Source: a phage. From it: a DNA stretch of 64,000 nt. Below the pieces are notes generated by a model. It saw nothing but the letters and a program-made list of their open reading frames with translations. It was not told where the DNA came from and did no database searches. This document shows positions 11,629-54,576 of this stretch, in pieces (position 1 is the first letter of the stretch; every line of letters starts with the position of its first letter). The DNA lies in the NCBI GenBank assembly GCA_012401045.1, contig GCA_012401045.1_4704.1. One strand, written 5' to 3'. Made by a program: the position numbers and the translations under genes.

Positions 11629-11639
11629 AATAGCATCCT

Positions 11640-12161
11640 TTATTTAAAAATGTATTCATATCCGAAAGTCGTCGCTGACCAGACCCGGATAGATGATAGT
11701 GTTCCGCCACGATAAAACGTTTTTGTGAATTCCATATCCTGGACAACACGATAATAAACACGTCCGATAATACGCACGATAAGGTTTCGTGATAACGATC
11801 TCTCCTCGCAGTATTCATCGATAAAGTCATCGTCGATATCCGATAAGACAACATCCGCAATTTCTTGCAGTAGATTCCTCATCAGCATCTGCCTTCCTTC
11901 GGTACCCCACCCAGACAAACAGTAATCGTCTTCTGCCTGACTATAGATGTCGTTAACCGCCTGTTCGAGCAGTTGCTCAAGATAGTAGTCATCGCGTTTT
12001 ATAACGTGGCGACGGCGCTCAGTGGCGTATTTTTCCATCCTGTGTTTCTCTTGTTCGGCGTATGTATTAACGACGCCACAGTCTTTTCTGGATCGTCCCA
12101 CAATGCACGACGAAAACTGGATACTACCATAACGGTAGGATAGATTTGTACAACCTCCCAT
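11640..12161 (-). CDS. hypothetical protein (173 aa as tracked; true start possibly internal Met near 12038)
   Basis: ORF track; overlaps upstream ORF by about 160 nt in another frame; N-terminal 40 residues look non-protein-like. Confidence 0.4.
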   Translation of the reverse strand: MGGCTNLSYRYGSIQFSSCIVGRSRKDCGVVNTYAEQEKHRMEKYATERRRHVIKRDDYYLEQLLEQAVNDIYSQAEDDYCLSGWGTEGRQMLMRNLLQEIADVVLSDIDDDFIDEYCEERSLSRNLIVRIIGRVYYRVVQDMEFTKTFYRGGTLSSIRVWSATTFGYEYIFK

Positions 12162-39099: not shown

Positions 39100-39810
39100 T
39101 CACCCCCTCAGAATCGCTTCTGTTTCGCTGATCGTATCCGCAGGATAAACCAAACTACTATCGATTGCGTTATTCACGTAACCACCCATTAAGTTGGTGA
39201 TGGTGTTTGTACCACTATCGATAATGTTTCGTAATCCGATATCGATGGCTTTTAACGTGCTGCGTTCCTCATCCGAAAGCAAACGCCATGCTCGACGACG
39301 ATCGTTGGGGTCACGTGTGGTGATAGAAGCCAGAACAGAATAGATGCTGCTATCCGCATTCAGTTTAACGCCTGCCAATTTCGCTGACGTGTAGAGCAGC
39401 TGATATTTTTCTTTCTCAGTGTACCACCATGGCACTTTACCGAGCGTATAGATCTCGTTATACATCAGCCATGGGAAAGAGTTTCGCATCACGACATCGG
39501 TTGACACCAACACCGTGTCACCGGGAAGAAACACAAACTCATAAAACGGCTGGCCATCCATGGTAATTTCACGGATGTCAGACGGGTCGATATGGAGCTG
39601 GGTCAATGCGTGGCTGACACCATACTGACCATCGGGAAGAATAATCGGGCAGCACGCACAAACCCGGTTCTCACTCCCGATGATAGATAAACCCAATCCC
39701 TCGTAACGGACGGGTGTCAGAATCGAACACCCGCCACGAGTAACAACAGATTTATCTTCTTGTATGTCCCAGTCCGCAAGCACCGCAGCACCGTTGCGGA
39801 CAAGCGCCAT
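39100..39810 (-). CDS. hypothetical protein (236 aa)
   Basis: ORF track; ATG immediately after upstream stop (coupled). Confidence 0.55.
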   Translation of the reverse strand: MALVRNGAAVLADWDIQEDKSVVTRGGCSILTPVRYEGLGLSIIGSENRVCACCPIILPDGQYGVSHALTQLHIDPSDIREITMDGQPFYEFVFLPGDTVLVSTDVVMRNSFPWLMYNEIYTLGKVPWWYTEKEKYQLLYTSAKLAGVKLNADSSIYSVLASITTRDPNDRRRAWRLLSDEERSTLKAIDIGLRNIIDSGTNTITNLMGGYVNNAIDSSLVYPADTISETEAILRG

Positions 39811-41334
39811 TTACACCTCGCTAATCTGGATAACGTAAAGCTGCTGGGCCACGTAATCGGTGGTCAGATGCATCGTTGCGATGGTCGCTGCTTCGAACAC
39901 CGTGAGTTCAGGACGTTCACGCATAATCAAATCGATCTCATCGATGAGACGGTTAACGCCTTGAGCGTCTTCGTGATGCATGGTTTTCACGTACAGCGTA
40001 CGGAAATACTGCTGGAAGTTAGCTACGTCGGTATCGGTAAGGGTAGCAACTTCACCACGTACGATTTCCATAACCTTCTTACGGGTATCTTCATCGAGGT
40101 CCACTGTAATCAGGTCAGCAAATACGCCCTGCAATGCCAACGCGTATGCACGTAAGCGGTTTGCGGCCTGCTGACTGGCTTTCATGTTGATGTAGTTACG
40201 GTAATGCTGCATGAAGCCTGCACCGTTAGCCAACAGCTCATCTTTACTGATGAGTTCACGTTCTAACAGGACAGCTGCGGTCAGTGCTTCCGGCGAACCA
40301 CCTTCTTGCAGATAACCCATGTAGACATCTGCGTTAACGAAAATCGTCATCGTTGACGCATCTTCAGCACGTTGAATCTGAGAAGCCGACGGTGCAGAAA
40401 GAATCAGCTCACCACGCTCCATACGCAGGATACGATCACGACCGACGCGGGCCATCCCGTTGATCGCCGCAGCGCGAGCTTGTTGCATTTTAGCGCGGTA
40501 GTTTTCAAGCATCATGTCGTTGCCGTCCTGGATATCTTCCAGCAGGTTAACGGCCCACATATAGCAGAGGAATGCAGGAGTTGCCGCAGCGCGGGAACCG
40601 TGGAATGCAACGTTATCGCTATCCGGATATGTAATCAGATAAGCGGTGTTGTTCGAAGAAGGAGCGGAACCACGGAAGAAATAGTTGTAGATGTCTTCCA
40701 GTGCCTGATCGCTCATCCCTTCCGTTGCTTGCTGTACAAAACGATCCAGGTTTTCATTACCGGTATACAGCAACGTACGCAGCTTATCGCCGGTGATAAA
40801 CGCAAGCTTTTCGGTTGGGGTGAAATCGTTATTAATCGAAATCAAGCCATTGAGATCGTAATCGCTAACTAAGGCCTGGTATTCTTCGGAGTTATAAAAC
40901 TCAGGGTAGTAACTCAGACTTACTGTCGGGATCAGTTTCGGTGCCAGGATGATCGAATCGATGCGTTTTTCCAGTTCCGGGTACAGTGCACGGCATTTCG
41001 GCAGGATGGTATTACGCGCCAACTCTTTGGCATACACCACTTTTTCCACCACGTCTTGAACTGCGGTCTGTAAAACTTCATCGTGGATATAAACCTCGCG
41101 TTCGCTGGCAGGTGCTACAGCGCCATCTTCGGTTTCATCAAGTGTTTCAGCAACAACCATACGTTCAGCACTAAGCTGCACCAACGCATCTGCGTCTTCC
41201 GGTGGCTGGTTCCAATGCATGGTTTCACAAACCGCGGCTAACGGCGTGCCCGGAATGGCTGCGACGATTTGATTACGTTTGATAAACCCTTCGACAATGG
41301 GCTCAACAGCATAGACGGTTTTATTGGTGATCAT
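39811..41334 (-). CDS. hypothetical protein (507 aa)
   Basis: ORF track; ATG start. Confidence 0.6.
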   Translation of the reverse strand: MITNKTVYAVEPIVEGFIKRNQIVAAIPGTPLAAVCETMHWNQPPEDADALVQLSAERMVVAETLDETEDGAVAPASEREVYIHDEVLQTAVQDVVEKVVYAKELARNTILPKCRALYPELEKRIDSIILAPKLIPTVSLSYYPEFYNSEEYQALVSDYDLNGLISINNDFTPTEKLAFITGDKLRTLLYTGNENLDRFVQQATEGMSDQALEDIYNYFFRGSAPSSNNTAYLITYPDSDNVAFHGSRAAATPAFLCYMWAVNLLEDIQDGNDMMLENYRAKMQQARAAAINGMARVGRDRILRMERGELILSAPSASQIQRAEDASTMTIFVNADVYMGYLQEGGSPEALTAAVLLERELISKDELLANGAGFMQHYRNYINMKASQQAANRLRAYALALQGVFADLITVDLDEDTRKKVMEIVRGEVATLTDTDVANFQQYFRTLYVKTMHHEDAQGVNRLIDEIDLIMRERPELTVFEAATIATMHLTTDYVAQQLYVIQISEV

Positions 41335-41567
41335 TACTGCGCTCCCTCCAACGCATTACTACCTACGGGTTCTTTGGTTTCCAGACGGCTGTTTAAGCGC
41401 GCAGCAACCGCATCTTCCAATCCCAACGGCATAACCTTTTTGTTCACGTCAGGATCGGCGGCATCATTACCAACGGTTTGACGTACGACCTCAGCAACCA
41501 ACGTTACCGCGTTCGTCAGCGCAACAAAGCTCGCTGCCCGAGCCGTGTTAAGTTGTTCTTGGTTCAT
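41334..41567 (-). CDS. hypothetical protein (77 aa)
   Basis: ORF track; ATG with AAGGA SD. Confidence 0.45.
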   Translation of the reverse strand: MNQEQLNTARAASFVALTNAVTLVAEVVRQTVGNDAADPDVNKKVMPLGLEDAVAARLNSRLETKEPVGSNALEGAQ

Positions 41568-41618: not shown

Positions 41619-41643
41619 GGTACTGCGTTCAGCGAAATAAACG

Positions 41644-41667
41644 AGCAGGGGCATGAAGCCCCCTGCT
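41644..41667 (-). terminator. terminator hairpin after beta-like gene
   Basis: AGCAGGGGC-ATGAA-GCCCCCTGCT; U-rich tail on minus strand. Confidence 0.5.
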
Positions 41668-41668
41668 C

Positions 41669-44600
41669 TTATTTAGCGTCGTTAAAGTAAATATCAACAG
41701 CTCGTTCCGTTGCGTAGAGGAGACCAAGATTCACAGTCCCAACCACTTCCGGTGAACCGATGATACGGTTAGCGATACTGGTGCCACTGAAGATAGCATC
41801 AAGGGTGTGCCCGTCTTCGGTTTTGTTCACACCATGACCCACGGAAGAGACAACGGATTTCGCTTGAGCTGCGAAGGTACCTTTATCGCCCATCCCCGCA
41901 CCAAGGTCGTAACGCATGAAAATACGGATTGCGATCTGGTTCTCGCCTAACGGATTACCGTCTATTCTCACGTTACTGTTATTGATACGCCCCGTAGCTG
42001 CTTCGTTGAGTTTCAGTTCCTTAACGCGTTTAGCTCGCGCTTTATCTGCATCACCGACGAGCGCCGCCATGGTTTCACTCATATCCTCAATCTGAGCGCG
42101 GTACAACACATCGATCTGTACAACTTCACCATGAACGTCAGCACGTGGGTTATACTGACTCATACGACGTAATGCTTCAACGGCTTCCTGACTCTCATCA
42201 CTCAGATCGGTCGCAATCGGTTCTTCCAGTGTTGCAAGGATCGTTCGTGGTTCAACATGATCGCCGATTTTCACGAGACCACGAATGTTGAGATGGGCGT
42301 CAACGATGAGCGTACGGCTCTTAATCGATGGTGTTACGAGACGATCGGCAAGATTGTCGAAGATATACGAACTGTCCTCGTGAGTCTCTGGAATATCCAG
42401 AATACCGACAAGAGACAGAACACCTGCGCGCCAAACAACCTGACCTGGGTTCCACCAATCGCGTTTAAAATAAAGACGATGGAAGACCACCACATCCTGA
42501 TCCTTAACGCGATCCCCGACTTTATAATCGGTAATAAGATCGTGAGGATAATACTTACCTGGTCCTTTCCCGATTATCGTGCCGAGTTGGAAAACCTCTT
42601 CTCCTAACTCTGGATCGTCGTATTGTATCGTAAGCGCAGTTTTGGTGACCTTCTTAACAACACCATCGCCTTGGGCAGCTGCTGCGAAGAGCTTACCAAC
42701 ACGATGCGCGATAACGGTCTCACCGCCGGTGCGCCACGGTTGTACATCGTAACCCTCAGCGGCAATCATGCGGTTGTGTTGGATCCCGACGAAGACCAGA
42801 CGTTTTCCATCATCACGGTCTACGGCTGGAACAGCTAACGCCGACGTACTCATTACCGATGAGATACCGTCTGTCTTTTCATCGAATGGTCGTGTTTCAC
42901 CATACACCGACACGATATTAGCATTAGGTGCAAGGTAAGCTGAGATACCCACATCCCCACTATCTTTCGTACCCTCTGACACAATACCAACATCGGACTT
43001 GTCGTATTCACGATCACGTGCGCGTCGAAGCGATGTCTTTGAACGACCCCCGATACCGGTCATCGTTGCTTCTTCACCCTGCTTGATATCCAGCATCGGG
43101 TTGGTTTCATCGATCACGATGGACGCGCTGTCGTCGAGAATTTGGTTCCAGACGCTTACCGGACTGATTGAGATTTTCTGGCGATTTCCTTGACTGCTGT
43201 TCTCATTCTGACGAATAGCGCCAACCAGATCCTTATACACCAATTCAGCGAACTTATCGTACGTTTTAAAACGTTGGTAGTTCACATCGTTGGTGTTAGG
43301 TGCCCAGTCATCCAGAAGCAGTTCAACAGCACGCAGTAACAACATGGCGAAATCGGTAGGTTCTCCCATGTTCTGTAGCAACGTACGGCTTACCGGATCA
43401 ACGAAAAGACGCTCCATGAGTTCAAGTTCGCGTAAATGGCGAACCTTAAGTCCAGCACCATCAACAACGTTAAAATAGATATCTCGATTGTCGAAAGCAC
43501 CGCGAGCGTAACCGATGTAGTTACGGTATTCGTTAAACCCACCCAGCAACAACGTCGTCATGCGATCGTCTTTACTGAAGATCAAACTTTCGTCATCAAA
43601 GCTCACCGCGAATTCATCGGGTGCTAATCCCATACGAGAACCGCGAGGTACCGTACGATAGTTCGCTTTAAGATGTTCTAATAACGGGGTAAGTCCACCC
43701 AGATAACTTAGAACGACACCAACCGGAATACGTACACCCATGAATTCAAGATCGGCGGCTTCGATCGGCATCTTAGCCGCATTGATACCGAAGAAATCAG
43801 GGAACGTCCCTACAGGTGTTGGTGTTTGTCCTGACTGACAGATATAGAGCTGATTGCGTTTATCGATTGCTAAGAATTCACCCAGCGTGTTACGCGCAAA
43901 CGTCAGGAGCCCTTCGGCTAACTGTTCGTTGAACCGATCTTCCCCGATGAACTCCGGCAATGTCTTTGTATCGAGACGTATATCCCAATCAGCAAATTGG
44001 ATTTGGGTATAGTTGCGTGCAAGCACAGCGAAGTAATACGGGACTTTGACGGCCGGATCAAAGACGTTACCACGTTTTAACGTGGTTAAGGGTGAGGACT
44101 TATCGTAATACATCGCTGTAAGTTGGCGTGTTAACCAACGACCGGCGTTATTAACGACACGCTCTGAACGTTTAACAAACACCTTACCGTAGGCGGTACT
44201 CAACGCAACTTCGGATGATGATACCTTTCTAATAGGTTTATCAACACGTTGTTTACGCATCCGGTATTTGATGCCGTTAACGACATAAATGCCGTCCTTA
44301 CGAACCTTCGGCAACATCACCGGGAACGTGGTTGGGACACCGCCTACAGGGGCCAGTTTAATCGTGATAACTTGATAATCCCCCATCACGTCAACAACAT
44401 CTTCAACTTTATATCCCGTGACAGGGTAACCTGCCTGTTGTACGGCAACAACAGCGGCTGCGATGTCCTTTTGCATCACGTGTTCAACGTAATGTTTATC
44501 CCACACCGCAAGCGTCGATTTACATAGGCTCTTATCGACGATAACATCCGCTTCCGGCATAACCTTTGCTGGCGCTAATTTCGCGGCTTTTGGTTTAACT

Positions 44601-46015
44601 TCAACATACTCAGCAAGTGTTAATCCAGAACCGTCGGGTGCTTCGATTTCATGGATGGCGTCGGCATTACGCATCGCTGCTTTATATTGGACACCGCTTA
44701 ACTGACCCGCATCCGCCAGATCGCTCGCGCGCACCAACACCGCATCCGATAACGACTGAATATATTCACCGTGTGTTTTTGGTAACGTTGCCGCGTCAAA
44801 GACATCAACCTTTTCTTCTTCGGTATCGTCGGTAACGACCTCGAAGAGATCGTCGGTAATGTCCTGATCTTCATCGGGTTGGAAATCCGGCTGTACTTCT
44901 ACCCCGGGTACTTCACGGACATCTTCGAACGAGCGTTCTACAATGGCGTTCCACGCATCAGCGTCATCGTCTTCATCCGACCCACCAACCAACTCCGCTT
45001 CTAACTCATCGGGATCAAGAACAGTGGCCAGATCCTCACCGTTAGGAAGCACGACGTCGCGATCATCGTACTCTGCATCCGGGCTGTCCGCAAGAATATC
45101 TCGCTCTTGACGAAGAACCTGTTCCTCTTCTTGTTTCTGTTCTTCTTCATTCGCGCTCTGCGACCATAGACGTGTTACCGCCATCATCCAACGACGCTGG
45201 AAGGTTTCGAGTGTCGTTTTATCGAGTTCTTCCCCTTCCTTTACAAGCCCGGTACGCCATTCTTCCAACAGGCCGAGATTCAGCGTAAAGAAGTACACGC
45301 CGTCTGTAAATACAACGTTAAGCTTATCCAGCGTGGCTCTGTCTAACGAAGCCATCGTGCTGTTCTCACGATCGGTTCCCAGCCAGCGGAAGAAGTCAAA
45401 GAACGACAGCTCCTCCGGCGTAGCGAAATTCATGAGGTTGTTACGGGTCGGTGCCTGTTGCGTGGTACGCATCAACGAAATCTTCGGCAATGTTGACGGT
45501 ATACGGAACAACAGAAAGTGTTGGCGATCGCTTTGCTGCGCGATTTCGTTGGCTTTCGACCAAATTGTTTTACGTACGTTGAACCATTCATCATACCAAC
45601 GGGTGAGCGTTGGACGATAGATGTACATGTGGTTAAGATGTGCGTAGTTAGCAACGATCTGAGCGTTGATGTTTTTCTCCACCGTACTTAGATCGGTAAC
45701 CAAACGAAAACGACGATGTGACGCACGATAATCCAATTTCGCTCGTGGGAGCTGGAATCGCTGATCACGTCGAGGTGCACCCTGTTTGGTTGCGAGATCA
45801 TCAGCAAACGAAATCCATAGTTGAGCACTTTCTTTACTCAACATGTATTCGTTTTCTGGAGGACCTATCAATGAAGGATCCGTTGCGGTGTAATGATAGA
45901 CAGCATAACGTGGCAGCTGCAATAGCTGCACTAAACGTAATCTCGGTGACAATAGCTCTTGGTAGCGTCTGACGCCAAACTGTCGGTAGTAATCAAGGTA
46001 TTTAAGTTTTGCCAT
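41669..46015 (-). CDS. RNA polymerase beta-like subunit with long N-terminal extension (1448 aa), probably virion RNAP
   Basis: RpoB-like motifs: GIGGRSKTSLRRARD...DVGIVSEG...GDVGIS (fork/Rif region), LAVPAVDRDDGKRLV, VKIGDHVEP, GMGDKG near C-terminus; coupled 3 nt after beta' paralog. Confidence 0.6.
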   Translation of the reverse strand: MAKLKYLDYYRQFGVRRYQELLSPRLRLVQLLQLPRYAVYHYTATDPSLIGPPENEYMLSKESAQLWISFADDLATKQGAPRRDQRFQLPRAKLDYRASHRRFRLVTDLSTVEKNINAQIVANYAHLNHMYIYRPTLTRWYDEWFNVRKTIWSKANEIAQQSDRQHFLLFRIPSTLPKISLMRTTQQAPTRNNLMNFATPEELSFFDFFRWLGTDRENSTMASLDRATLDKLNVVFTDGVYFFTLNLGLLEEWRTGLVKEGEELDKTTLETFQRRWMMAVTRLWSQSANEEEQKQEEEQVLRQERDILADSPDAEYDDRDVVLPNGEDLATVLDPDELEAELVGGSDEDDDADAWNAIVERSFEDVREVPGVEVQPDFQPDEDQDITDDLFEVVTDDTEEEKVDVFDAATLPKTHGEYIQSLSDAVLVRASDLADAGQLSGVQYKAAMRNADAIHEIEAPDGSGLTLAEYVEVKPKAAKLAPAKVMPEADVIVDKSLCKSTLAVWDKHYVEHVMQKDIAAAVVAVQQAGYPVTGYKVEDVVDVMGDYQVITIKLAPVGGVPTTFPVMLPKVRKDGIYVVNGIKYRMRKQRVDKPIRKVSSSEVALSTAYGKVFVKRSERVVNNAGRWLTRQLTAMYYDKSSPLTTLKRGNVFDPAVKVPYYFAVLARNYTQIQFADWDIRLDTKTLPEFIGEDRFNEQLAEGLLTFARNTLGEFLAIDKRNQLYICQSGQTPTPVGTFPDFFGINAAKMPIEAADLEFMGVRIPVGVVLSYLGGLTPLLEHLKANYRTVPRGSRMGLAPDEFAVSFDDESLIFSKDDRMTTLLLGGFNEYRNYIGYARGAFDNRDIYFNVVDGAGLKVRHLRELELMERLFVDPVSRTLLQNMGEPTDFAMLLLRAVELLLDDWAPNTNDVNYQRFKTYDKFAELVYKDLVGAIRQNENSSQGNRQKISISPVSVWNQILDDSASIVIDETNPMLDIKQGEEATMTGIGGRSKTSLRRARDREYDKSDVGIVSEGTKDSGDVGISAYLAPNANIVSVYGETRPFDEKTDGISSVMSTSALAVPAVDRDDGKRLVFVGIQHNRMIAAEGYDVQPWRTGGETVIAHRVGKLFAAAAQGDGVVKKVTKTALTIQYDDPELGEEVFQLGTIIGKGPGKYYPHDLITDYKVGDRVKDQDVVVFHRLYFKRDWWNPGQVVWRAGVLSLVGILDIPETHEDSSYIFDNLADRLVTPSIKSRTLIVDAHLNIRGLVKIGDHVEPRTILATLEEPIATDLSDESQEAVEALRRMSQYNPRADVHGEVVQIDVLYRAQIEDMSETMAALVGDADKARAKRVKELKLNEAATGRINNSNVRIDGNPLGENQIAIRIFMRYDLGAGMGDKGTFAAQAKSVVSSVGHGVNKTEDGHTLDAIFSGTSIANRIIGSPEVVGTVNLGLLYATERAVDIYFNDAK

Positions 46016-46018
46016 GGG

Positions 46019-47707
46019 TTAGGCTCCACGAGGTCCCGTTAAGTTGCGTAATAGGAACGCAACCGTATCGTAACCAATATCGATGTTGAATTTATTTTTA
46101 CCACTTACCCAGAAAGCTCGCTTCTTGTGCGAGTTGGTAATTTCGTCAATAGCTTCCATGGAATAAAGAACGTTAACCGAGACCGTATCACCATCAAAGT
46201 CCCCACCAAGTCCGGCGAGGTATGGCGCAGGGACAATAGTCGTTTCTACGAACGAAGCATTAGGTAACCAGTCGGGGTATTCCCATGCGATAAATCGTTC
46301 ATCCGTTATTGGTTCCCAGTTACTATCCAGTTCGGTTTTCGGTTTTGCGGCGACGGTTGTACGTGCGTAACAGGTTAACGGGATAACGGATTGCATACCT
46401 GATACCGGATAACGTGTTACCATCGCAGCCAGGTTATTCCAGTACTTATATCCGGCAATATAGATAAGCTCGGTGTAAGTAATGGGGTGAACATCCGCGC
46501 CAGGTTTATTCAACATCTCCGGGGGTAATTCACTCATGCCACGGAATAACCGAAACGAATCGTTGTTCACATAGACGAGGCAAAGATATCGTCCATTGAC
46601 CATGATAGGCTCGTTACGCACGCCAGGATCGCTTAAGGTGTTCAGTAAACGTTCTATTCCGTCCCATGTTGTAAAGTCATCGATGGTGTCTGGATCAAGC
46701 GTGACGCGCTCACGTTCCATCGTTTCGGTATCAGTAAGTTCAACTTCTGTAACATCACGGACAAATATTTCCTGCAAAATACCGGTACGTAACGCATGTT
46801 GCGTTACTGGGAGAGCGGCTTTACTCATCTGGTATAACCCTAACTGAACCGCGGTACAGGAAGGCTGGTTAGGCGACCCTAATACCTCCGTTGTGGGGTT
46901 AATTGCCGAAATAACGTTACGGGTTGAGTTCCAAACGCGACGTGAACCAAACTTACCTTGGAAGATCCCTTTCTTACCCTGGAACATATCCAACAGTAAA
47001 GCGTAGATATCGTTGAATGTTCTCTGTAAGCTCCAGCGCTGGCCGTCGTAAACGGGATCGGAATAATCTTTTAATCCATCAGGGACGGTGTTAGAAATTG
47101 CAAGGAAACGACGATACAACTCCGTGATTTCTTGCTCGCTTTCATACCCACCTTCTTTTACTTCTATTTCACGTAAGCCTGCAGGCAATACCAGTAAGTG
47201 ACGGGTCATCGCTTTGAACATGTTCTCTTCGACAACTTTAATTCGTAGCTCTCGTTGAGCTGAACCCGTTGAAACGAACTTGATATCCGCGACGTGTTGT
47301 GCAAAGAACCCGTATCCTGTTTGTCCTGTTAATGCATCAGACGCAACGAAGTCGCGTTGTTCGGGATCCCACCGAGCGTACGCCTTCCCCGACATGATAT
47401 CGCCATAGAGGTGTTTTAATCGAATGAGACGGTCGTAAATGACAGGATGCAGGATTTCAACCTTGCATTCAATCACCGCAAATCGACGGTCTCGATCTTC
47501 ACTACCCGCACTACCAAAGATGGTGTAAGAATAGAAACCATCATCGTGGAAATTACCGGTGCTTGGGTCACGAATGCTCATGCTCGTGATCTTGGGGAGA
47601 AAACGTAACTGCTGTTTATCGAGGTGTAAAATACTAATATTAAACGGCTCTCTGACTTTAGCCATGGAGACACTCCTCTTTACCACCACCGGCTGCGGCG
47701 GTATCAT
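46019..47707 (-). CDS. RNA polymerase beta'-like subunit, N-terminal fragment (562 aa as tracked; alternative start ATG 47665 with AGAGGAG SD)
   Basis: LGGDFDGDTVSV catalytic-type motif about 55 aa from C-terminus; RFAVIECKVEILHPV near N-terminus; no zinc ribbon. Confidence 0.55.
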   Translation of the reverse strand: MIPPQPVVVKRSVSMAKVREPFNISILHLDKQQLRFLPKITSMSIRDPSTGNFHDDGFYSYTIFGSAGSEDRDRRFAVIECKVEILHPVIYDRLIRLKHLYGDIMSGKAYARWDPEQRDFVASDALTGQTGYGFFAQHVADIKFVSTGSAQRELRIKVVEENMFKAMTRHLLVLPAGLREIEVKEGGYESEQEITELYRRFLAISNTVPDGLKDYSDPVYDGQRWSLQRTFNDIYALLLDMFQGKKGIFQGKFGSRRVWNSTRNVISAINPTTEVLGSPNQPSCTAVQLGLYQMSKAALPVTQHALRTGILQEIFVRDVTEVELTDTETMERERVTLDPDTIDDFTTWDGIERLLNTLSDPGVRNEPIMVNGRYLCLVYVNNDSFRLFRGMSELPPEMLNKPGADVHPITYTELIYIAGYKYWNNLAAMVTRYPVSGMQSVIPLTCYARTTVAAKPKTELDSNWEPITDERFIAWEYPDWLPNASFVETTIVPAPYLAGLGGDFDGDTVSVNVLYSMEAIDEITNSHKKRAFWVSGKNKFNIDIGYDTVAFLLRNLTGPRGA

Positions 47708-47910
47708 CTGAACACACGAGAGACGTAATGGGTGATGGCGTCACCCATCGCTTCCTTGCTTGAGGCGAGGAAGTTATTAGGTTACGTACCTGCCTGATTT
47801 TATCAGGTGGGCGATGTGTGAAGTTACGCTTCAACATTATCAATGCCGAAGGTAAACTTCGTGCATCACGTTCCAACGTAACATGGGAACGTATCGAACT
47901 GGAGGTATAC

Positions 47911-50900
47911 ATGGTAGATAAAACCCGTGTTGAGGGTGATGATAATTGGGACAACTGGGATGAAGACTTCTCCCTGGATCTCGATTTTAACGAACCCAAA
48001 GACGATCGTAAACCGATAACACGCTTTGCGATAGGAGCGGTTAAAGGTGCTGCTGAGGATCTTACTTCCTACGAAAGAATGAAGGAGATCGCCAGAAACG
48101 CATTGCCTAAGGGCTACAGCGACGGTATGGATCTTATTGATTCCGCCGTCGGATCCACGAAGGAACTATACAATGAAGCCGTTCGTGACGTTCTTCCTAA
48201 GGTCCAAAGCTCAAAACGGTTAGCCGCACAACTGACCAAGAAATACCGTGCGAGCATGCCCGATTTCTCGAAGAAAATTCTTGAGCAATGGGAGCGAGAA
48301 GCCAAGGAAGAAGACGAACGTAAACAAGCTGAAGAAACCCTTCGTCAACGCATGGCGAGCGCGGGGGACGATGAGATCGCCCGCAAGGTTGCCGAGGCAT
48401 TAGGCGAATCAGCAAACCAAAGCGCGGATCAGTTCGCTGAACAGCAAGCGAAAGAGAGTATCCGTGACGATATCGCTGACAAACGGTACGCTGTAACCAA
48501 CAAACAAATGAGTGCGATGCAAGAAGGCGTCGCCAAGATGGTTGGTTTCAACAATGAATTCGCTGCACGCTACATGCGTAAAAGCCTGGAACTGAAATAT
48601 CGTTCCTTAGCGATTCAACGTGCAAGTTTTGATCAGCATAAAAAGTTAGCCGAAGTCTATATCGGTTTATTACAAAACATCCAGAAGAATACGGCTTTAC
48701 CTGATGCGGCTAAAGCAAAAATGTCGGAAGAATTCCGCCGTAGCGCGTACCAACGTTTCTTTGGTAATGCGTTAGATGCGATGAGTTCTTTCGAGAACCG
48801 TTTCTTTGCCGATGTTAAGAAAAACCTTGCCACCAACGCATTAGGTGCTTTAAAAGGCGTCGTGTCTGGCGCAAACGATGCGTTATACGGTTTAAACGAA
48901 GCACGTGACTCGATATCCATGATGGATGGGATGGGGTCAGATGGCGATATTAAGGAAATGCAAGGAAAGATGTTGGGTCAGTTCATTGGCTCAACTGTCG
49001 CACCATGGATGGCTAATAAAGGCAGGATGGCGTTACGCGATTTAGCAAAACGTCACCCCAATGCTAAATTCGCTAGCGCGTTAAAAGCCGTGGATCAAGG
49101 TGGTGAGGCTGCCGCTTACACAACGCGTAATCTCGGTAAACTGCTCCAGGAAGATATTCGTAAGAACGAATTCAATCTTAGCGATCCGTTTTACAAGCAA
49201 TTGTTACGCGGTGCAGGGCGTTGGGCGTTCAACATGGACAGCGGACGTAACTTCCGCGTGATGAACGACACCGCTGAAACACTGGCAGAGCAAACATCTT
49301 TCGACGGTTTAACCTACCGCAGCATCAACGAGGTTATTCCAGGCTTTCTTGCACGCATTCTGAAAAGCAGTGAAGGCATCCGCACCGGAAACAGCGATCC
49401 TGACTACGAGGTCTATGACGGCATCAGCGGGCAATTCGTGTCTCAGCGCACGCGTGAGCAAAGCGTCAACGACACGCTGTTTAACAAACGTTCATTTGGT
49501 TATTACGCCAGCCGTTTCAACGAGGTTATCTCGGTCATCGATCCCGATAAGCAATTATCGGAAAAAGCCAGGAAGGCACTGGCTAAACAGTTGGCACGAG
49601 ATAGCGACGCGAACATCGCATTCGACCCGGCTCGTTTTACGGATGAAAGCAACTTCGATCGTAGTATCGACCGTGACGCTATTAAGGAACTTTCCACGTA
49701 CTTTCGTGACCGTTACGGTATTCGTGACGATATCAACGATAAGGGGGAACGTCATCAGGTCATTGGAAACCGCGGGCAATATTACACGGAACGTAACCGA
49801 GCCGATCTTCGTTACGGTAATCTGAAATCTTTACAACCGGATATCCAGCGTAACCTTAACCTGCTGAAACGTACTGGTGACGTCCAATATCTGGAACGGA
49901 TCGGGATTGTAACGAGAAATAGCGACGGAAGTTACTCGGTTAATCACGATAGGTATTTCTCTGAAATCGATCGGTACATCGACCGGCCGGAGTACGCTGA
50001 CCGCGGCGATGTTAATACGCGATTAACCGCTCAGGAAACAAGAGCGCTGGCGCTGGGTTATCGTGACGCAAAACCATCAGCTGGTGACGTCCAAAATGTC
50101 GGCCTGCCGAACATCGGTCGTAAGGCTGCTGGAACAGTAACCGTTGATGAAAACATCGGCTACGATAAATGGTGGAACGACACAGGTGTTATCACCACAT
50201 CGCTTGAAGAACAGAATCGAGCGTGGCAAGAGCTTTATCTCGAGGCGTTGTCCGAAGCATCCGAACAACGTGTTGAAATGCTTGCGCTGCTGAAAGCCAT
50301 TTCTGAGAAAGACTGGTCTAATAACGTTTCGCTGGATGGTGAAGATGTACCTGAAGGTACAGCACCCATTTCATTTATCGATCGTGCCAAACAAAAACTC
50401 GGCGGACGCAACCTGTTTAAAGGCGGCCGCAATCTCCTCTGGAAAGGAATTAAAAATACCGCACGTTTAGGTGTTAAAGGCGCACGCTGGGGTGCAGAAC
50501 GCACGTTGGGTAGTTTGGTAAATTCTGGCCGACGCATTATCAATTTCAACCGCTTCGTGTTCGGCGCATTATCCAAGGTTGATCAGGTTCCGTTTGACAT
50601 TTACGTTAAAGGGGAATCCCAACCACGCATATTGGTTGCTAAACTTCGTCAGGGGTTATACTTCGATGAAGCGACAGGAAAAGCCGTAAAACGGATGAAG
50701 GATATCAAAGGCCCACTCGTTGATGCGGATGGAAACATCGTAATCAGCAACGAGGATATCGAGAAAGGGTTGGTCACTCGCGCTGGTCGTGCCTTTGAGA
50801 ATTCAGGACTTAAAGCATGGGCACGTGAAGGTCTTAATGGAATAACGACGGCATTAAGTCTCCCACGGATGTTAAAACGCGGTGCGGTTGAGATCTACAA

Positions 50901-53900
50901 ACAGCTTGACAAAACACCCGACGTTTACGTCAAGGGAGAATCAACGCCTCGTCTGTTGTCCATGGTGTTAGCAGCGGGTGGGTATTTCCGTCGCTCGGAT
51001 GGACAAGTCATCAAAAATCTTGAAGACATCGATGGTGATGTTGTTGATGCACAAGGTAACGTCGTACTTACGCTTGCCGACATGCAGAAAGGACTTGTCG
51101 ATAAATACGGTAAAGCGATTCGTCGTTTAAAAGAAAAGCTCATCAACTTCGGTGTAAAAGCTTTTACGTTACCGTTAACGTTGCTACGTAAGACAAAGGA
51201 CATCCTTAAAGCCCTTCCAGGTAAAACCGTTAACGGTCTACGGCGGATGGGATTAAATTTCCAATCACCTGACGCGTTACTGGTGGGAACAACGTCGAGC
51301 ATGGTAGATCGCCTCGATGCTATTTACCAGCTTCTTGACCAGCGTATGCCGGGAGGTGATAAGGATTACCGCGATTGGAATGGCGATGGTGTTCGAGAAG
51401 GATCGTTGGAAGACCTGAAACGTAAGCGTGAAGCCAAGGAAAACGGTAAGGATGACATCGGCAAAGATTCCAATAAAGGAGAAGAAAAGGAGAAGAAACG
51501 AGGGTTACTCGGAAGCCTTTTCGATATGCTCGGTGATACCGCAATAGGTAAACGTCTCATGGCGAGTCCGCTTGGAAAAATTCTGGGTGGTCTTGGGGCG
51601 GTGTTAAGCGGCGGTGCGTCGTTAACTGGGTTGTTGGGCAAAGGTCTCATTAGAGGAACCGGCGCGCTGGTCAAGGGAGGACTAAGTGCGGCAGGATGGT
51701 TAGGACGTGGTGCGTTAATGGCGGGTGGGGCCGCGTTGAACGCCGTTGGTGGGTTATCGGGATTAGGTGCATTCCTCATCTCACCTGTTGGGCTTGCTAT
51801 CGCTGGCGGTGCGTTGGCTGCTTATGCTGGATGGAAGATCTATCAGCATTTCGCCGAGAAGCCTGACCCGATGCAGAAGCTCCGTCTTATTGCATACGGT
51901 GCAAAAGGGGACGATAAAGACTTCAATAAGAAGCTGCTTGCGACAGAAACATACCTCACCGACCATGTGGTTATGACCGGGGATACCATCGGATTCGATC
52001 CGAAAGCCGACTCGGAAAAGATTCTCGAAATCTGGGAATTGTCTCTGGAAGATTCCGACCGAATGAACGAATGGAAACGCTGGTATCTGCATCGTTTTAT
52101 TCCTGTTTTCGCTCGCGCGTACAAACTCTGGAAAGAGCATATGCCGGACGAGAAGAAATACATGGAAATGGATAAATATCCGAACGGTGAGAACAAAGTG
52201 AAATGGTCGGAAGCGTTTATCTGGCCTTCCGATAGTCCTGATGGTCCGTATTACGTCGAAGCTAACCCGTTGGGTTCTTCTGGTGCGACGCGTTATATTG
52301 CTGGTCAAGACGTCAAAACCTTGATGCTGAAACAACTCGAAGCCATCAAGAAAGAGTACCAGAATCAGATTAAGCAATACACTCATGATGAGGCTATTGC
52401 TGATTGGTCACGGATGTCTGACACACAACGTAAATCCGTTGCGCCTAACGCATTACGTGGTCAGAAAGCGTCATTACGTTTTAACGATAAACGTTACAAC
52501 AGCGCTGGTGCTAAAGGACGACAGAAACTGGATGCAACCGCGGTTATTGAAAGCGTAGACCGCCGTGGTAGGAAATGGGTTGCCGGTGGATACATCGATG
52601 AACTCACCAGTCTTCGTGTTCGTGCGTACGGTATTAAGGTTCCGTTGTTAAGTCAGATAAAAGTGCTGATGGAACTTGAAGACGCTGTAGAACCTGGCGT
52701 TGTCGCTGAAGGTAAAGGTGTTAAATACGGTGGCGATCTTGTCGCGCTCTACAAGAAATTCGCGACGAAGTTCGGAAGAGACGTTAACAGCAAGCATGAT
52801 CAGGATATCTGGTTTGCTTGGATGAACAACCGTTTCCTGCCCGTCTTTTTAACCTATTACCAACAAGTTAGCGACATGGGCGGTCAAGGACTTCTGTCCG
52901 ACGTGGTACAGAACCTGAAAGACAGCCAACGCTGGGAAATCGGTGAAGCACTTGTCGCAACGCAATACCGTGATGAGAAAGGTACACTGCAGCCTGTATG
53001 GTCCTGGAATAGTTGTGGTTTCTCCGGTACTGAAGCTAACACCACCAGCAGTTCAACAAAGAGCCAACTCGATCTGTTAAAAGAATATGCGGATAAAGAG
53101 AAGGTTCGTGAGAAGAACGCGGAAGCATCGCAAGAGGATACCGATAAATTATCGAAGATCCAAGAGCTGATGATGAAGCAGGCTGGGTACGAGAAGAAAG
53201 ACGGTGTCTGGCAGAAGAAATCTCGCATTACCGGCGGGATGAGTAACTCCGAAGCGAATTACAACCCCAATAGGAATAAGGTCGGTGAAAGCAGCTTTAC
53301 GGCTTCGGCTACTTCCAATGCGGGATTAGGGTCAACCGGCGATCTTACCGGATTGCCTAACATGGGCTTACAGAAACCTGCAATGGGACCAGGTCCTGAA
53401 GCTGGACGTCGTGCGCTTGTTAAATCCGCTGTAAAACGCGGCATTACCGATCCGATGGAAATGGCGATGTTCCTTGCGAACATCGAACATGAATCGGGGA
53501 ACTACACTCACGTACGTGAGGGGAACTATAAGACACCAGAGCGTCTTAAACAGGTCTTCCCTTACAAATTCCGTGATGTGCAGGATGCCGCACAGACGAT
53601 CAGCATGGGTCCGGAAGTGGTATTCGAACGTGTGTATGGTAATCGTAAAGATCTCGGAAACACACAGAAAGGAGACGGGGCGAAGTATTTAGGACGTGGC
53701 TTCATTCAGGTTACCGGTAAAGCTAACTACGCTCGTCTGTCCAAGACCTTGAATAAGGATCTTGTCAGCGATCCGACCTACCTGGAAACGCCGGAAGGTG
53801 CAGCGGAAGGTAGTGTCGCATGGTGGCTCAACCGAGGTAACGTATTACGCGATCCCGCAAAACGGGGTGACGTACGCCAAGTTCGTTATCTAGTTAACGG

Positions 53901-54576
53901 TGGCTATAACGGATTACGTGATGTTGAACAACGTTCTGCATATTGGATTCAGGCAGCTAAGAATGGCACCCTGAAGAAAATGATGGACGAGTTATCAGGG
54001 TCAACATCAGACGATCAAGCTGAAGGACCGACCACTGCCGAACAGGTGAAGAACGAAGCAGCACAAGAGGCAAACGGAACACCTGCTGTAAGCAACGATC
54101 CGCAAGCCCCAGTATCTTCTACCACCCCTGAAGCTAAACCGTCTGCGGCTGCCGGGACGGCCCCAGCACCTGGGGAAGCATCACCAACGCCTGGAAGTTT
54201 CGAAACAGCAAAAGCCGCGGCAGGACAACCGACATCAACTCCAGCACCTAGCGATTTGCCGTCAAACCCAGGCGCAAATCGAGGGATATCGGTTCCGAAT
54301 ACACCTGCACAGGTTGCGCAGTCTGCGACACAAACGTCGGCTGCAAGTGAGAACTTCTACGGTAGCGCAGGTGAAATTCTCCGACAGCAGCTGACCACAC
54401 AGCAGAACATCGAGAAGAACACCGGTAGAACGAATGAACTTATTTCGGAATTAATCCAAGCCGTTAAGGGTTCTTCTATCGGTAAGGGTTCTGCAAGTCC
54501 TTCTCAACAACAGACGATGTCACTACCTAATCGTCCGCAAGGAATCTCTCCAACACGGACAAGGTACGCACAGTAG
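47911..54576 (+). CDS. giant virion-associated protein with C-terminal GH19-like peptidoglycan hydrolase domain (about 2221 aa; track start GTG 47818)
   Basis: GH19 motifs FLANIEHESGNY, YLGRGFIQVTGKANY, SVAWWLN near 53400..53965; Gly-zipper hydrophobic segment; ATG 47911 has GGAGG SD. Confidence 0.7.
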   Translation: MVDKTRVEGDDNWDNWDEDFSLDLDFNEPKDDRKPITRFAIGAVKGAAEDLTSYERMKEIARNALPKGYSDGMDLIDSAVGSTKELYNEAVRDVLPKVQSSKRLAAQLTKKYRASMPDFSKKILEQWEREAKEEDERKQAEETLRQRMASAGDDEIARKVAEALGESANQSADQFAEQQAKESIRDDIADKRYAVTNKQMSAMQEGVAKMVGFNNEFAARYMRKSLELKYRSLAIQRASFDQHKKLAEVYIGLLQNIQKNTALPDAAKAKMSEEFRRSAYQRFFGNALDAMSSFENRFFADVKKNLATNALGALKGVVSGANDALYGLNEARDSISMMDGMGSDGDIKEMQGKMLGQFIGSTVAPWMANKGRMALRDLAKRHPNAKFASALKAVDQGGEAAAYTTRNLGKLLQEDIRKNEFNLSDPFYKQLLRGAGRWAFNMDSGRNFRVMNDTAETLAEQTSFDGLTYRSINEVIPGFLARILKSSEGIRTGNSDPDYEVYDGISGQFVSQRTREQSVNDTLFNKRSFGYYASRFNEVISVIDPDKQLSEKARKALAKQLARDSDANIAFDPARFTDESNFDRSIDRDAIKELSTYFRDRYGIRDDINDKGERHQVIGNRGQYYTERNRADLRYGNLKSLQPDIQRNLNLLKRTGDVQYLERIGIVTRNSDGSYSVNHDRYFSEIDRYIDRPEYADRGDVNTRLTAQETRALALGYRDAKPSAGDVQNVGLPNIGRKAAGTVTVDENIGYDKWWNDTGVITTSLEEQNRAWQELYLEALSEASEQRVEMLALLKAISEKDWSNNVSLDGEDVPEGTAPISFIDRAKQKLGGRNLFKGGRNLLWKGIKNTARLGVKGARWGAERTLGSLVNSGRRIINFNRFVFGALSKVDQVPFDIYVKGESQPRILVAKLRQGLYFDEATGKAVKRMKDIKGPLVDADGNIVISNEDIEKGLVTRAGRAFENSGLKAWAREGLNGITTALSLPRMLKRGAVEIYKQLDKTPDVYVKGESTPRLLSMVLAAGGYFRRSDGQVIKNLEDIDGDVVDAQGNVVLTLADMQKGLVDKYGKAIRRLKEKLINFGVKAFTLPLTLLRKTKDILKALPGKTVNGLRRMGLNFQSPDALLVGTTSSMVDRLDAIYQLLDQRMPGGDKDYRDWNGDGVREGSLEDLKRKREAKENGKDDIGKDSNKGEEKEKKRGLLGSLFDMLGDTAIGKRLMASPLGKILGGLGAVLSGGASLTGLLGKGLIRGTGALVKGGLSAAGWLGRGALMAGGAALNAVGGLSGLGAFLISPVGLAIAGGALAAYAGWKIYQHFAEKPDPMQKLRLIAYGAKGDDKDFNKKLLATETYLTDHVVMTGDTIGFDPKADSEKILEIWELSLEDSDRMNEWKRWYLHRFIPVFARAYKLWKEHMPDEKKYMEMDKYPNGENKVKWSEAFIWPSDSPDGPYYVEANPLGSSGATRYIAGQDVKTLMLKQLEAIKKEYQNQIKQYTHDEAIADWSRMSDTQRKSVAPNALRGQKASLRFNDKRYNSAGAKGRQKLDATAVIESVDRRGRKWVAGGYIDELTSLRVRAYGIKVPLLSQIKVLMELEDAVEPGVVAEGKGVKYGGDLVALYKKFATKFGRDVNSKHDQDIWFAWMNNRFLPVFLTYYQQVSDMGGQGLLSDVVQNLKDSQRWEIGEALVATQYRDEKGTLQPVWSWNSCGFSGTEANTTSSSTKSQLDLLKEYADKEKVREKNAEASQEDTDKLSKIQELMMKQAGYEKKDGVWQKKSRITGGMSNSEANYNPNRNKVGESSFTASATSNAGLGSTGDLTGLPNMGLQKPAMGPGPEAGRRALVKSAVKRGITDPMEMAMFLANIEHESGNYTHVREGNYKTPERLKQVFPYKFRDVQDAAQTISMGPEVVFERVYGNRKDLGNTQKGDGAKYLGRGFIQVTGKANYARLSKTLNKDLVSDPTYLETPEGAAEGSVAWWLNRGNVLRDPAKRGDVRQVRYLVNGGYNGLRDVEQRSAYWIQAAKNGTLKKMMDELSGSTSDDQAEGPTTAEQVKNEAAQEANGTPAVSNDPQAPVSSTTPEAKPSAAAGTAPAPGEASPTPGSFETAKAAAGQPTSTPAPSDLPSNPGANRGISVPNTPAQVAQSATQTSAASENFYGSAGEILRQQLTTQQNIEKNTGRTNELISELIQAVKGSSIGKGSASPSQQQTMSLPNRPQGISPTRTRYAQ

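What the first reader, a model, noticed from the sequence alone, without database searches (positions are those of the whole stretch)
41669..47707. Second multisubunit RNAP gene set (beta'-N paralog plus beta-like), adjacent to the giant virion protein
ORF 46019..47707 carries GGDFDGDTVSV but no zinc ribbon, so it is a beta' N-fragment paralog of the intron-containing gene at 3134..5359. The translationally coupled 1448-aa ORF has several RpoB-like motifs. Two beta' paralogs imply two distinct phage RNAPs. Position next to the giant virion gene suggests this set is the virion-packaged enzyme, and the intron-containing one next to the shell gene the non-virion enzyme.
Basis: partly seen in the sequence, partly recalled or inferred. 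Interest (0 to 1): 0.5.

Follow-up and report, generated by a model that had tools for sequence, protein, structure and literature searches.

The report
Virion RNA polymerase genes, Goslar-like phage
These two genes encode the β'-N and β-N pieces of the RNA polymerase that nucleus-forming jumbo phages pack into their virions to start early transcription; this is a well-described system, and near-identical proteins of E. coli phage Goslar have already been found in virions by mass spectrometry.

Summary
Window 46019..47707(-) and 41669..46015(-) are two real, closely coupled genes (stop TAA, 3 nt, ATG). The window is a Goslar-like E. coli chimallivirus, 96-98% nt identical to NC_048170.1.

- **562-aa protein:** an RNAP β' N-terminal fragment with an intact DFDGD loop and no zinc ribbon. 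Its family profile hits AR9 β'N at E=1.5e-22 and E. coli β' 211-356.
- **1448-aa protein:** an RNAP β N-terminal fragment. Its profile hits Thermus β at E=1.2e-18 in four colinear blocks. It sits behind a roughly 450-aa N-terminal extension specific to the virion enzyme.
- **Orthologues:** Goslar gp205/gp207 (99.4-99.6% aa), phiKZ gp180/gp178 and SPN3US gp240/gp241, in conserved synteny.
- **Packaging:** published Goslar virion proteomics gives about 7-14 copies per virion for these subunits, against fewer than 1 for nvRNAP β'N.

Extras:
- The window holds two more vRNAP subunits, β'C (39100..39810) and βC (61157..61831).
- Both vRNAP genes here lack the group I introns that relatives carry at two catalytic-site codons (D^F of DFDGD; DD^GKR).
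- The 5' exon flank of the first site is the most diverged stretch against Goslar.

Interest is low.

The parts
46019..47707 (-). vRNAP β' N-terminal subunit. Orthologue of Goslar gp205 plus its exon 2, phiKZ gp180 and SPN3US gp240. Probable true start at 47665 (548 aa). DFDGD codons at 46201..46187. No zinc ribbon and no intron.
   Evidence: phrog_2986 E=4e-179. Profile A2 against the PDB hits β' chains only, best E=1.5e-22. 99.6% aa identity to spliced Goslar gp205, two substitutions. 37% identity to phiKZ gp180. SD before M15.
41669..46015 (-). vRNAP β N-terminal subunit, 1448 aa. Orthologue of Goslar gp207, phiKZ gp178 and SPN3US gp241. Residues 1 to about 290 form a conserved vRNAP-specific α/β domain. 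Residues about 290-440 are an acidic linker (34% D+E). Residues from about 530 to 1448 match bacterial β from Thermus residue 118 to about 872. The catalytic DD is at 1068-1069.
   Evidence: phrog_3148 E=0. Profile A1 against the PDB hits Thermus β at E=1.2e-18 in four colinear blocks. 99.4% aa identity to Goslar gp207. 31% identity to phiKZ gp178 over 1-1435. AF2 of residues 1-300 gives pLDDT 92.9. Composition.
46016..46018 (-). 3-nt spacer between the TAA of β'N and the ATG of βN. GGAG lies 8 nt upstream of the ATG inside the β'N coding end. The arrangement fits translational coupling or co-transcription.
   Evidence: Sequence read directly.
41643..41668 (-). GC-rich hairpin (9 pairs, 7 GC) followed by a T-rich tail, immediately after the βN stop. 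Probable operon terminator, also annotated as a terminator in Goslar.
   Evidence: Terminator scan. Goslar annotation at the homologous position.
46198..46199 (-). Unoccupied group I intron site A, between codons D503 and F504 of DFDGD. Occupied in Goslar (2044 nt with HNH/NUMOD1 gp206), in IMG/VR contig L006 (510 nt, too short to hold a homing-endonuclease ORF; ORFs not listed) and in phiKZ (with gp179).
42808..42809 (-). Unoccupied group I intron site B, between D1069 and G1070 (DD^GKR) of βN. Occupied in IMG/VR contigs L004 (about 1.6 kb with a 403-aa ORF) and L006 (about 0.46 kb), and in PhiPA3 (gp210 endonuclease intron).
   Evidence: PMC11620839.
39100..39810 (-). Candidate vRNAP β' C-terminal subunit, 236 aa. 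Identical to Goslar gp210; orthologue of phiKZ gp176 and SPN3US gp244.
   Evidence: 100% identity to Goslar gp210 and 28.6% to PHIKZ176 at E=7e-26. phrog_2926. Listed as a vRNAP subunit in the Goslar virion MS and by Thomas 2016. Homology to β' could not be shown here.
61157..61831 (-). vRNAP β C-terminal subunit, 224 aa. Identical to Goslar gp196. It continues β where the 1448-aa protein stops.
   Evidence: phrog_3233 E=1e-65. 100% identity to Goslar gp196. A profile of 7 orthologues hits E. coli β 1162-1310 at E=1.6e-3, and 14 of the 15 listed hits are RNAP β. About 13 copies per Goslar virion.
47818..54576 (+). Divergently transcribed giant virion protein, 2252 aa. Orthologue of Goslar gp204 and phiKZ gp181 (tail-associated endolysin). 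This is syntenic context, not an RNAP part.
   Evidence: phrog_3201 and endolysin phrogs. tblastn to PHIKZ181. Same arrangement in PhiPA3 and SPN3US.

Best explanation
The two ORFs are the β'-N and β-N subunits of the virion RNA polymerase (vRNAP) of a Goslar-like E. coli chimallivirus.

**How it most likely works (by orthology and the literature):**
- The genes are co-transcribed as one unit, ending at the hairpin at 41643-41668. By analogy with phiKZ this happens in the middle or late phase, driven by the non-virion polymerase.
- Their products assemble in the cytoplasm with βC (window 61157..61831), β'C (39100..39810) and a β'-middle subunit encoded outside the window (Goslar gp78). The result is a five-polypeptide, α/ω-less, rifampicin-insensitive enzyme.
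- About ten copies are packed into each capsid.
- They are ejected with the DNA into the early-infection vesicle and transcribe the early genes there, including chimallin and the nvRNAP genes.

**Shown here:** subunit identity, catalytic motifs, domain coverage, orthology, synteny and the absence of introns.

**Inferred from orthologues and papers:** assembly, packaging, ejection and early-gene specificity.

The roughly 290-aa N-terminal α/β domain plus acidic linker of βN is specific to vRNAP β proteins. Its proposed role in targeting the complex into the head (Thomas 2016) is untested.
For: - **Phage identity:** 96-97.8% nt identity to Goslar over 56.7 kb.
- **β' assignment:**, with single-sequence support.
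- **β assignment:**
- **βC continuation:**
- **Orthology and synteny** with phiKZ gp175-gp182, PhiPA3 gp208-213 and SPN3US gp239-244.
- **Goslar virion LC-MS/MS** lists gp78, gp196, gp205, gp207 and gp210 as vRNAP. Estimated copies per virion are 13.6 (gp207), 12.8 (gp196), 8.4 (gp210) and 7.4 (gp205), against 0.49 for nvRNAP gp247.
- **phiKZ:** mCherry-gp180 is incorporated into virions at about 10 copies, enters the cell with the DNA, and co-precipitates gp178, gp80 and gp149 (PMC10612078).
- **SPN3US:** an amber mutation in gp241 removes all vRNAP subunits from heads (PMC5105663).
- **Catalytic residues conserved:** the D491, G492 and D493 columns of DFDGD are invariant in the 10-orthologue alignment, and the first Asp varies only between D and H. 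D1068, R1072 and K1378 are invariant in β.
Against: - No proteomic or transcriptional data exist for this exact phage.
- Pfam RpoB/RpoC models do not reach any threshold on these proteins, so the assignment rests on family profiles.
- The Goslar virion preparation also contained some non-structural proteins (chimallin, PhuZ), so detection alone is not proof. The roughly 15-27-fold excess over nvRNAP β'N is what carries the argument.
- The fifth subunit (β'-middle) is outside the window and was not seen.
- The β' homology of the 236-aa protein could not be reproduced.
Confidence: 0.95

Rival explanations
1. The roles are reversed: this set is the non-virion (middle/late) polymerase, and the intron-containing gene next to the shell gene belongs to the packaged enzyme.
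For: Nothing positive. Sequence alone cannot say which paralogue is packaged, and the Goslar virion MS did detect a trace of nvRNAP β'N (about 0.5 copy).
Against: - The window proteins are orthologous to phiKZ gp180/gp178, not to gp55/gp123 (separate PHROG families 2986 vs 2987).
- The Goslar orthologues are 15-27 times more abundant in virions than gp247.
- phiKZ gp180 is packaged and gp55 is nuclear.
- The gene next to chimallin is the gp55 orthologue in the phiKZ gp54/gp55 arrangement, as I recall it (own knowledge; the window and Goslar arrangement is).
Confidence: 0.02
2. The proteins are polymerase-derived but now mainly structural or assembly factors of the head (scaffold or inner-body-like), with catalysis dispensable.
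For: Nicking of phiKZ gp178 disrupts capsid assembly (PMC11620839). The genes lie in a head/ejection-protein module next to very abundant virion proteins gp208/gp209. βN carries a large non-polymerase N-terminal domain.
Against: - The catalytic DFDGD, the β DD and the β lysine are invariant or nearly invariant across hundreds of divergent homologues. That pattern indicates selection on catalysis.
- Early phiKZ transcription is independent of the host RNAP and precedes nvRNAP synthesis.
- A copy number of about 10 per virion is enzyme-like, not scaffold-like.

A dual role remains possible and is compatible with the best explanation.
Confidence: 0.03

Closest known systems
Escherichia phage vB_EcoM_Goslar gp205 (plus exon 2) and gp207 (NC_048170.1)
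   Same: 99.6% and 99.4% aa identity. Same order, spacing, terminator and neighbours. The Goslar proteins are annotated and quantified as vRNAP subunits in virions.
   Different: - Goslar's β'N gene is split by a 2044-nt group I intron carrying the HNH/NUMOD1 ORF gp206, inserted between D and F of DFDGD. The window gene is continuous.
- The five codons around the site differ synonymously: GGT GGG GAC TTT GAT in the window against GGC GGT GAT^TTC GAC in Goslar.
- The 500 nt 5' of the site are about 10% diverged, against 2.6% on average.
Pseudomonas phage phiKZ gp180 (β'N) and gp178 (βN), the experimentally characterised vRNAP
   Same: Same subunit boundaries, same gene order (gp181<-|gp180->gp178->gp177->gp176->gp175), DFDGD in gp180, and a long N-terminal extension in gp178.
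   Different: Only 37% and 31% aa identity. phiKZ gp180 carries the site A intron with gp179, which the window lacks.
Salmonella phage SPN3US gp240/gp241/gp218/gp42/gp244
   Same: A five-polypeptide vRNAP defined genetically and by MS. gp241 (βN) has a roughly 400-aa non-β N-terminus, and gp244 is the small β'C subunit. The gene order gp239-gp244 matches the window.
   Different: 29-34% identity. No introns at these sites in SPN3US.
PhiPA3 gp211/gp209 (βN) with intron endonuclease gp210 (Birkholz et al. 2024)
   Same: The intron sits immediately after the conserved DD of β, the position I call site B, which is occupied in two Goslar-like IMG/VR contigs.
   Different: The window's βN is the intron-minus allele. 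It reads DDGKR where PhiPA3 reads DD^MKR and the family consensus is DDPKR.
Bacillus phage AR9 non-virion RNAP (PDB 7S00/7S01), phiKZ nvRNAP, and bacterial/cyanobacterial RNAP β and split β' (γ)
   Same: Same catalytic core. β' is split just after the DFDGD-bearing double-psi β-barrel, as in cyanobacteria and plastids. The β conserved blocks are colinear.
   Different: - No α or ω subunits.
- No β' zinc ribbon.
- β is split after the GDKG/NPLG block.
- βN has an extra N-terminal domain.
- The enzyme is packaged in the capsid.
- The searches returned no chain of the virion enzyme; the best hits were the AR9 non-virion enzyme and cellular RNAPs.

Membership tests
Multisubunit RNAP β' (N-terminal part, double-psi β-barrel A) | Catalytic Mg-binding loop NADFDGD | tested here: met
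   GGDFDGDTVSV at residues 501-511. D491, G492 and D493 (548-aa numbering) are invariant in 10 orthologues, and the first Asp varies only between D and H.
Multisubunit RNAP β' (N-terminal part, double-psi β-barrel A) | Profile-level homology to conserved β' regions | tested here: met
   All 60 listed PDB hits (of 103 matched) are β'/γ chains, a few labelled β by their depositors: AR9 β'N at E=1.5e-22 and E. coli β' 211-356 at E about 6e-12.
Multisubunit RNAP β' (N-terminal part, double-psi β-barrel A) | N-terminal zinc ribbon (CxCx12CxxC) | tested here: not met
   No such motif; there are four scattered Cys, and no Cys column is conserved in that segment of the 10 aligned orthologues. The nvRNAP paralogue keeps CGCx12CPNC. 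This looks like a lineage-wide loss and not a disqualifier.
Multisubunit RNAP β' (N-terminal part, double-psi β-barrel A) | Pfam RNA_pol_Rpb1 domains above the gathering score | tested here: not met
   No Rpb1 hit for the 562-aa protein at E<=1. The family is too divergent for Pfam.
Multisubunit RNAP β | Colinear homology to conserved β blocks (fork, DDANR block, GDK..HGNKG block) | tested here: met
   Thermus β at E=1.2e-18, with blocks 118-136, 394-464, 532-656 and 822-872 in order. The 48 best of the 51 PDB hits are β chains; the remaining 3 have E>=0.07.
Multisubunit RNAP β | Active-site acidic pair and lysine conserved | tested here: met
   D1068 is invariant, D1069 is present in 30 of 35, R1072 is invariant, and the D1377/K1378 pair of the GDKG block is invariant.
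Multisubunit RNAP β | Pfam RNA_pol_Rpb2 domains above the gathering score | tested here: not met
   Zero Pfam families for the 1448-aa protein.
Jumbo-phage virion RNAP (phiKZ gp180/gp178 type) | Orthology to the experimentally defined vRNAP subunits, distinct from the nvRNAP paralogues | tested here: met
   tblastn to phiKZ gp180 at 1.8e-95 and gp178 at E=0. Separate PHROGs from the nvRNAP β'N.
Jumbo-phage virion RNAP (phiKZ gp180/gp178 type) | Conserved module: giant tail lysin <-| β'N -> βN -> gp177-like -> β'C -> head protease | tested here: met
   The same order is seen in Goslar, phiKZ and SPN3US, and in PhiPA3 as far as the gp177-like gene where the fetched stretch ends.
Jumbo-phage virion RNAP (phiKZ gp180/gp178 type) | Full five-polypeptide set encoded | tested here: inconclusive
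   Four are in the window: β'N, βN, βC and the β'C candidate. The β'-middle subunit (Goslar gp78) lies outside the 64-kb window.
Jumbo-phage virion RNAP (phiKZ gp180/gp178 type) | Physical presence in purified virions and ejection with the DNA | not testable with these tools
   Shown for Goslar proteins 99.4-100% identical, for phiKZ and for SPN3US. Not measured for this phage.
Jumbo-phage virion RNAP (phiKZ gp180/gp178 type) | Transcribes early genes independently of the host RNAP | not testable with these tools
   Literature only.
Group I intron-interrupted RNAP gene | Intron_gpI structure inside the coding sequence | tested here: not met
   No Rfam Intron_gpI hit at gathering score anywhere in the window. 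Relatives L004, L005 and L006 each give hits at sites A and/or B. Both ORFs are continuous.

The most novel reading that the evidence does not exclude
The intron-free vRNAP alleles of this phage may not be simply 'never invaded'. They could be survivors of an ongoing homing-endonuclease contest among co-circulating Goslar-like phages, fought at the codons for the two catalytic aspartate clusters.

- The five consecutive synonymous changes straddling site A (GAC TTT GAT where intron-bearing alleles read GAT^TTC GAC or GAT) would then make the site a poor target for the gp206-type HNH enzyme.
- The mosaic, hyper-diverged 5' exon flank would record repeated co-conversion.
- This would parallel the PhiPA3 gp210 versus phiKZ interference competition.

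Separately, the confidently folded N-terminal α/β domain of βN has no close solved relative. It could be the capsid-targeting or ejection module of the enzyme.
Probability: 0.3. Interest if true: 0.4.

Novelty: already known. Interest (0 to 1): 0.12.

Why it matters
As a discovery it matters little. Two multisubunit RNAPs, one packaged in the virion, are a hallmark of phiKZ-like and chimallivirus phages, and the near-identical Goslar proteins are already annotated and quantified in virions.

The value here is confirmation and cleaner annotation:
- correct subunit names (β'N, βN, βC and β'C instead of "RNA polymerase beta subunit" or "hypothetical");
- the probable start codon of β'N;
- the finding that four of the five vRNAP genes lie in this window.

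The modest new point is comparative. Four Goslar-like genomes show every combination of empty, endonuclease-less and endonuclease-bearing group I introns at two catalytic-site codons of the vRNAP genes. That makes this clade a natural system for studying intron homing and inter-phage interference in E. coli.

Tried and rejected
- **Pfam** on both proteins gave no RpoB/RpoC hit. Family profiles were needed instead.
- **Single-sequence phmmer of the 1448-aa protein against the PDB** gave nothing meaningful.
- **The search for homologous proteins** returned only 3 close relatives for the 1448-aa and the 236-aa proteins. It was replaced by the exhaustive HMMER search and by orthologues taken from annotated phage records.
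It was rerun with the C-terminal 999 residues.
- **β'C candidate (236 aa).** A 20-sequence profile found no significant PDB hit (best E=0.93). The β' homology of this subunit therefore remains unverified here.
- **Test for a shared co-converted flank.** I asked whether intron-plus and intron-minus alleles form two clean haplotype groups in the 5' exon flank. They do not; the four genomes are mutually mosaic. I do not claim a simple co-conversion tract.
- **G1070 as an escape substitution.** I asked whether G1070 next to site B is a unique escape change. It is not; it occurs in 4 of 35 family members.
- **Sigma-70 promoter scan** of the region was no better than shuffled sequence, as expected for a phage that uses its own polymerases.
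- **RNA-derived assembly.** I considered that the missing introns could reflect an assembly built from spliced RNA. I rejected this because the nvRNAP intron is retained and intergenic DNA is present.


Full report
**What the window is.** The 6-kb region is 96% identical at the nucleotide level to Escherichia phage vB_EcoM_Goslar, the only phage in the collection that matches at this level. Across 56.7 kb of alignable window the identity is 97.4% (1488 mismatches). The annotated Goslar neighbourhood is colinear with the window and includes chimallin, PhuZ, terminase, tail sheath and head protease. The window therefore comes from a Goslar-like, nucleus-forming jumbo phage (a chimallivirus). It is not Goslar itself, nor either of the two further Goslar-like contigs found in IMG/VR, which are 95.6-98.1% identical.

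**The observation.** Both ORFs exist as described, on the minus strand. The 562-aa ORF carries GGDFDGDTVSV at residues 501-511. It has four scattered cysteines and no zinc-ribbon motif. Exon 1 of the paralogue at 4088..5359 keeps CGCx12CPNC, the spacing of the E. coli β' zinc ribbon as I recall it (own knowledge), and ends in ...NADF. The upstream gene stops at TAA (46021..46019). Three bases later the 1448-aa ORF starts at ATG 46015, with GGAG 8 nt upstream. A strong hairpin with a T-rich tail follows the second stop directly (41643..41668), and the same feature is annotated as a terminator in Goslar. The first ATG of the 562-aa ORF has no Shine-Dalgarno sequence. M15 (47665) is preceded by AAGAGGAG and is the start used in Goslar, so the protein is probably 548 aa.

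**β' identity of the 562-aa protein.** Pfam is blind to this protein, but PHROGs places it in phrog_2986 at E=4e-179. The single sequence already finds the β'N subunit of the AR9 non-virion polymerase in the PDB at E=4.6e-4. A profile built from ten annotated orthologues (phiKZ-type KTN4, PhiPA3, SPN3US, Simmy50, RSL2, JM-2012, PALS_2, Miami, pVa-21) finds only β'/γ chains. These include AR9 β'N at E=1.5e-22, plastid and cyanobacterial β'/γ at about 1e-14, and E. coli β' 211-356 at about 6e-12, plus the DFDGD segment. The protein ends about 50 residues after DFDGD. This is the split shared with nvRNAP and cyanobacterial β' (PMC7598289). Paralogy with the 4088..5359 product shows only at profile level (phrog_2987 at E=1.5e-5). 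BLASTP between the two is not significant.

**β identity of the 1448-aa protein.** PHROGs places it in phrog_3148 at E=0. An exhaustive HMMER search with its last 999 residues found 2215 cluster representatives, most of them 1300-1500 aa long. A 35-sequence profile hits only RNAP β in the PDB (Thermus β at E=1.2e-18). The match falls in four colinear blocks: Thermus β 118-136, 394-464 (fork), 532-656 (the DDANR block) and 822-872 (the GDK/HGNKG block). D1068, R1072 and K1378 are invariant. The protein thus covers β up to about E. coli residue 1105.

**The rest of β is also in the window.** ORF 61157..61831(-) is 224 aa, 100% identical to Goslar gp196, and falls in phrog_3233. A seven-sequence profile of it aligns to E. 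coli β 1162-1310, including the GEME region, at E=1.6e-3, and 14 of the 15 listed hits are RNAP β.

**Which polymerase is this?** The proteins match phiKZ gp180 (37% identity, E=1.8e-95) and gp178 (31% over 1-1435). The whole phiKZ gp175-gp182 module is syntenic with the window, as are PhiPA3 gp208-213 and SPN3US gp239-244.
- In phiKZ, gp180 carries DFDGD, is present at about 10 copies per virion, enters the cell with the DNA, and co-precipitates gp178, gp80 and gp149. The paralogue gp55 goes to the phage nucleus (PMC10612078).
- In SPN3US, an amber mutation in gp241 removes all vRNAP subunits from heads. It also revealed gp244 (the phiKZ gp176 homologue) as the missing β' C-terminal piece (PMC5105663).
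- For Goslar, a 2026 preprint reports LC-MS/MS of purified virions and names gp78, gp196, gp205, gp207 and gp210 as the five vRNAP subunits.
- Its Table S4 gives mid-estimates of 13.6, 12.8, 8.4 and 7.4 copies per virion for gp207, gp196, gp210 and gp205. The nvRNAP β'N (gp247) is at 0.49.

These Goslar proteins are 99.4-100% identical to the window's. The 236-aa protein at 39100..39810 is the gp210/gp176/gp244 orthologue. I could not confirm its β' homology myself.

**How it most likely works.** This part is inference from the literature cited above. The two genes are expressed as one unit after the nvRNAP becomes available. Their products join βC, β'-middle and β'C in the cytoplasm into an α/ω-less core. 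About ten complexes are packed per capsid and ejected with the genome into the early-infection vesicle. There they transcribe early genes, including chimallin and the nvRNAP genes. After that the genome moves into the phage nucleus and the nvRNAP takes over.

**Introns: what differs from the relatives.** In Goslar the β'N gene is interrupted by a 2044-nt group I intron (Rfam 67.7 bits) that carries gp206, an HNH_3/NUMOD1 endonuclease. It is inserted exactly between the D and F codons of DFDGD. The 5' exon ends in U and the intron ends in G. Splicing it out in silico gives a 562-aa protein with two substitutions relative to the window.

phiKZ has an intron (with gp179) at the same position. IMG/VR contig L006 has a 510-nt intron there, too short to hold a homing-endonuclease ORF. 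The window and contig L004 have none.

A second site lies immediately after the conserved DD of β (window D1069^G1070, nt 42809/42808). It is occupied in L004 (about 1.6 kb with a 403-aa ORF) and in L006 (about 0.46 kb). It is the site of the PhiPA3 gp210 intron, whose endonuclease nicks phiKZ gp178 and gives PhiPA3 a competitive advantage. The window has neither intron, and Rfam finds no group I intron at gathering score anywhere in it.

Around site A the window differs from Goslar at five consecutive third-codon positions. Both intron-free alleles read GAC TTT GAT, while all three intron-bearing alleles read GAT^TTC GA(C/T). The three most diverged 300-nt windows of the whole 56.7-kb comparison are 46201-46700, the 5' exon flank (about 10% against a mean of 2.6% and sd of 1.7%). 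The four Goslar-like genomes are mutually mosaic there and do not fall into two haplotypes. I therefore read this as a recombination or homing hot spot, without claiming a particular history.

**Verdict.** The feature is the already described virion RNA polymerase of chimalliviruses, in a close relative of a phage where it has been measured. Novelty: already known. Interest: low. The intron presence/absence mosaic at catalytic codons is a modest comparative curiosity.

Noticed in passing
window 3134..5359 (minus strand), especially 3413..4094: The nvRNAP β'N gene seems to hold two group I introns in tandem. Rfam Intron_gpI matches 3727-4094 (49.3 bits, E=3e-11, just under the gathering score of 50) and more weakly 3413-3723 (20.9 bits, E=0.011). 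Exon 1 ends ...NADF. The codons GAC GGT GAC (DGD) sit at 3725-3717, exactly between the two hits, and are followed by stop codons. This suggests a 9-12-nt mini-exon. Goslar's HNH ORF gp186 (a 1065-nt block) is absent at window 3729/3730.
   Followed up: partly
window 61157..61831 (minus strand): A fourth vRNAP gene lies in the window: the β C-terminal fragment (224 aa, 100% identical to Goslar gp196). A 7-sequence profile aligns to E. coli β 1162-1310.
   Followed up: yes
window 39100..39810 (minus strand): This is the orthologue of Goslar gp210, phiKZ gp176 and SPN3US gp244, reported as the small β' C-terminal vRNAP subunit. Its β' homology could not be reproduced by profile search, and structure prediction failed for lack of an admissible deep alignment.
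   Followed up: partly
window 46201..46700: This is the most diverged stretch of the whole window against Goslar (about 10% vs a 2.6% mean). It directly flanks the empty intron site in DFDGD. Five consecutive synonymous differences straddle the site, and the four Goslar-like genomes are mutually mosaic here.
   Followed up: partly
L004 10903..12484 and L006 7510..8019, 11379..11872 (IMG/VR Goslar-like contigs): Relatives carry group I introns, with or without endonuclease ORFs, at two catalytic-site codons of the vRNAP genes, in every combination: window -/-, Goslar +/-, L004 -/+, L006 +/+.
   Followed up: partly
[not shown]
   Followed up: partly
window 39811..41334 and about 41334..41567 (minus strand): Between βN and β'C lie the orthologues of Goslar gp209 (phiKZ gp177-like, 507 aa) and the small gp208. 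Both are reported at more than 200 copies per Goslar virion and have no known function.
   Followed up: no
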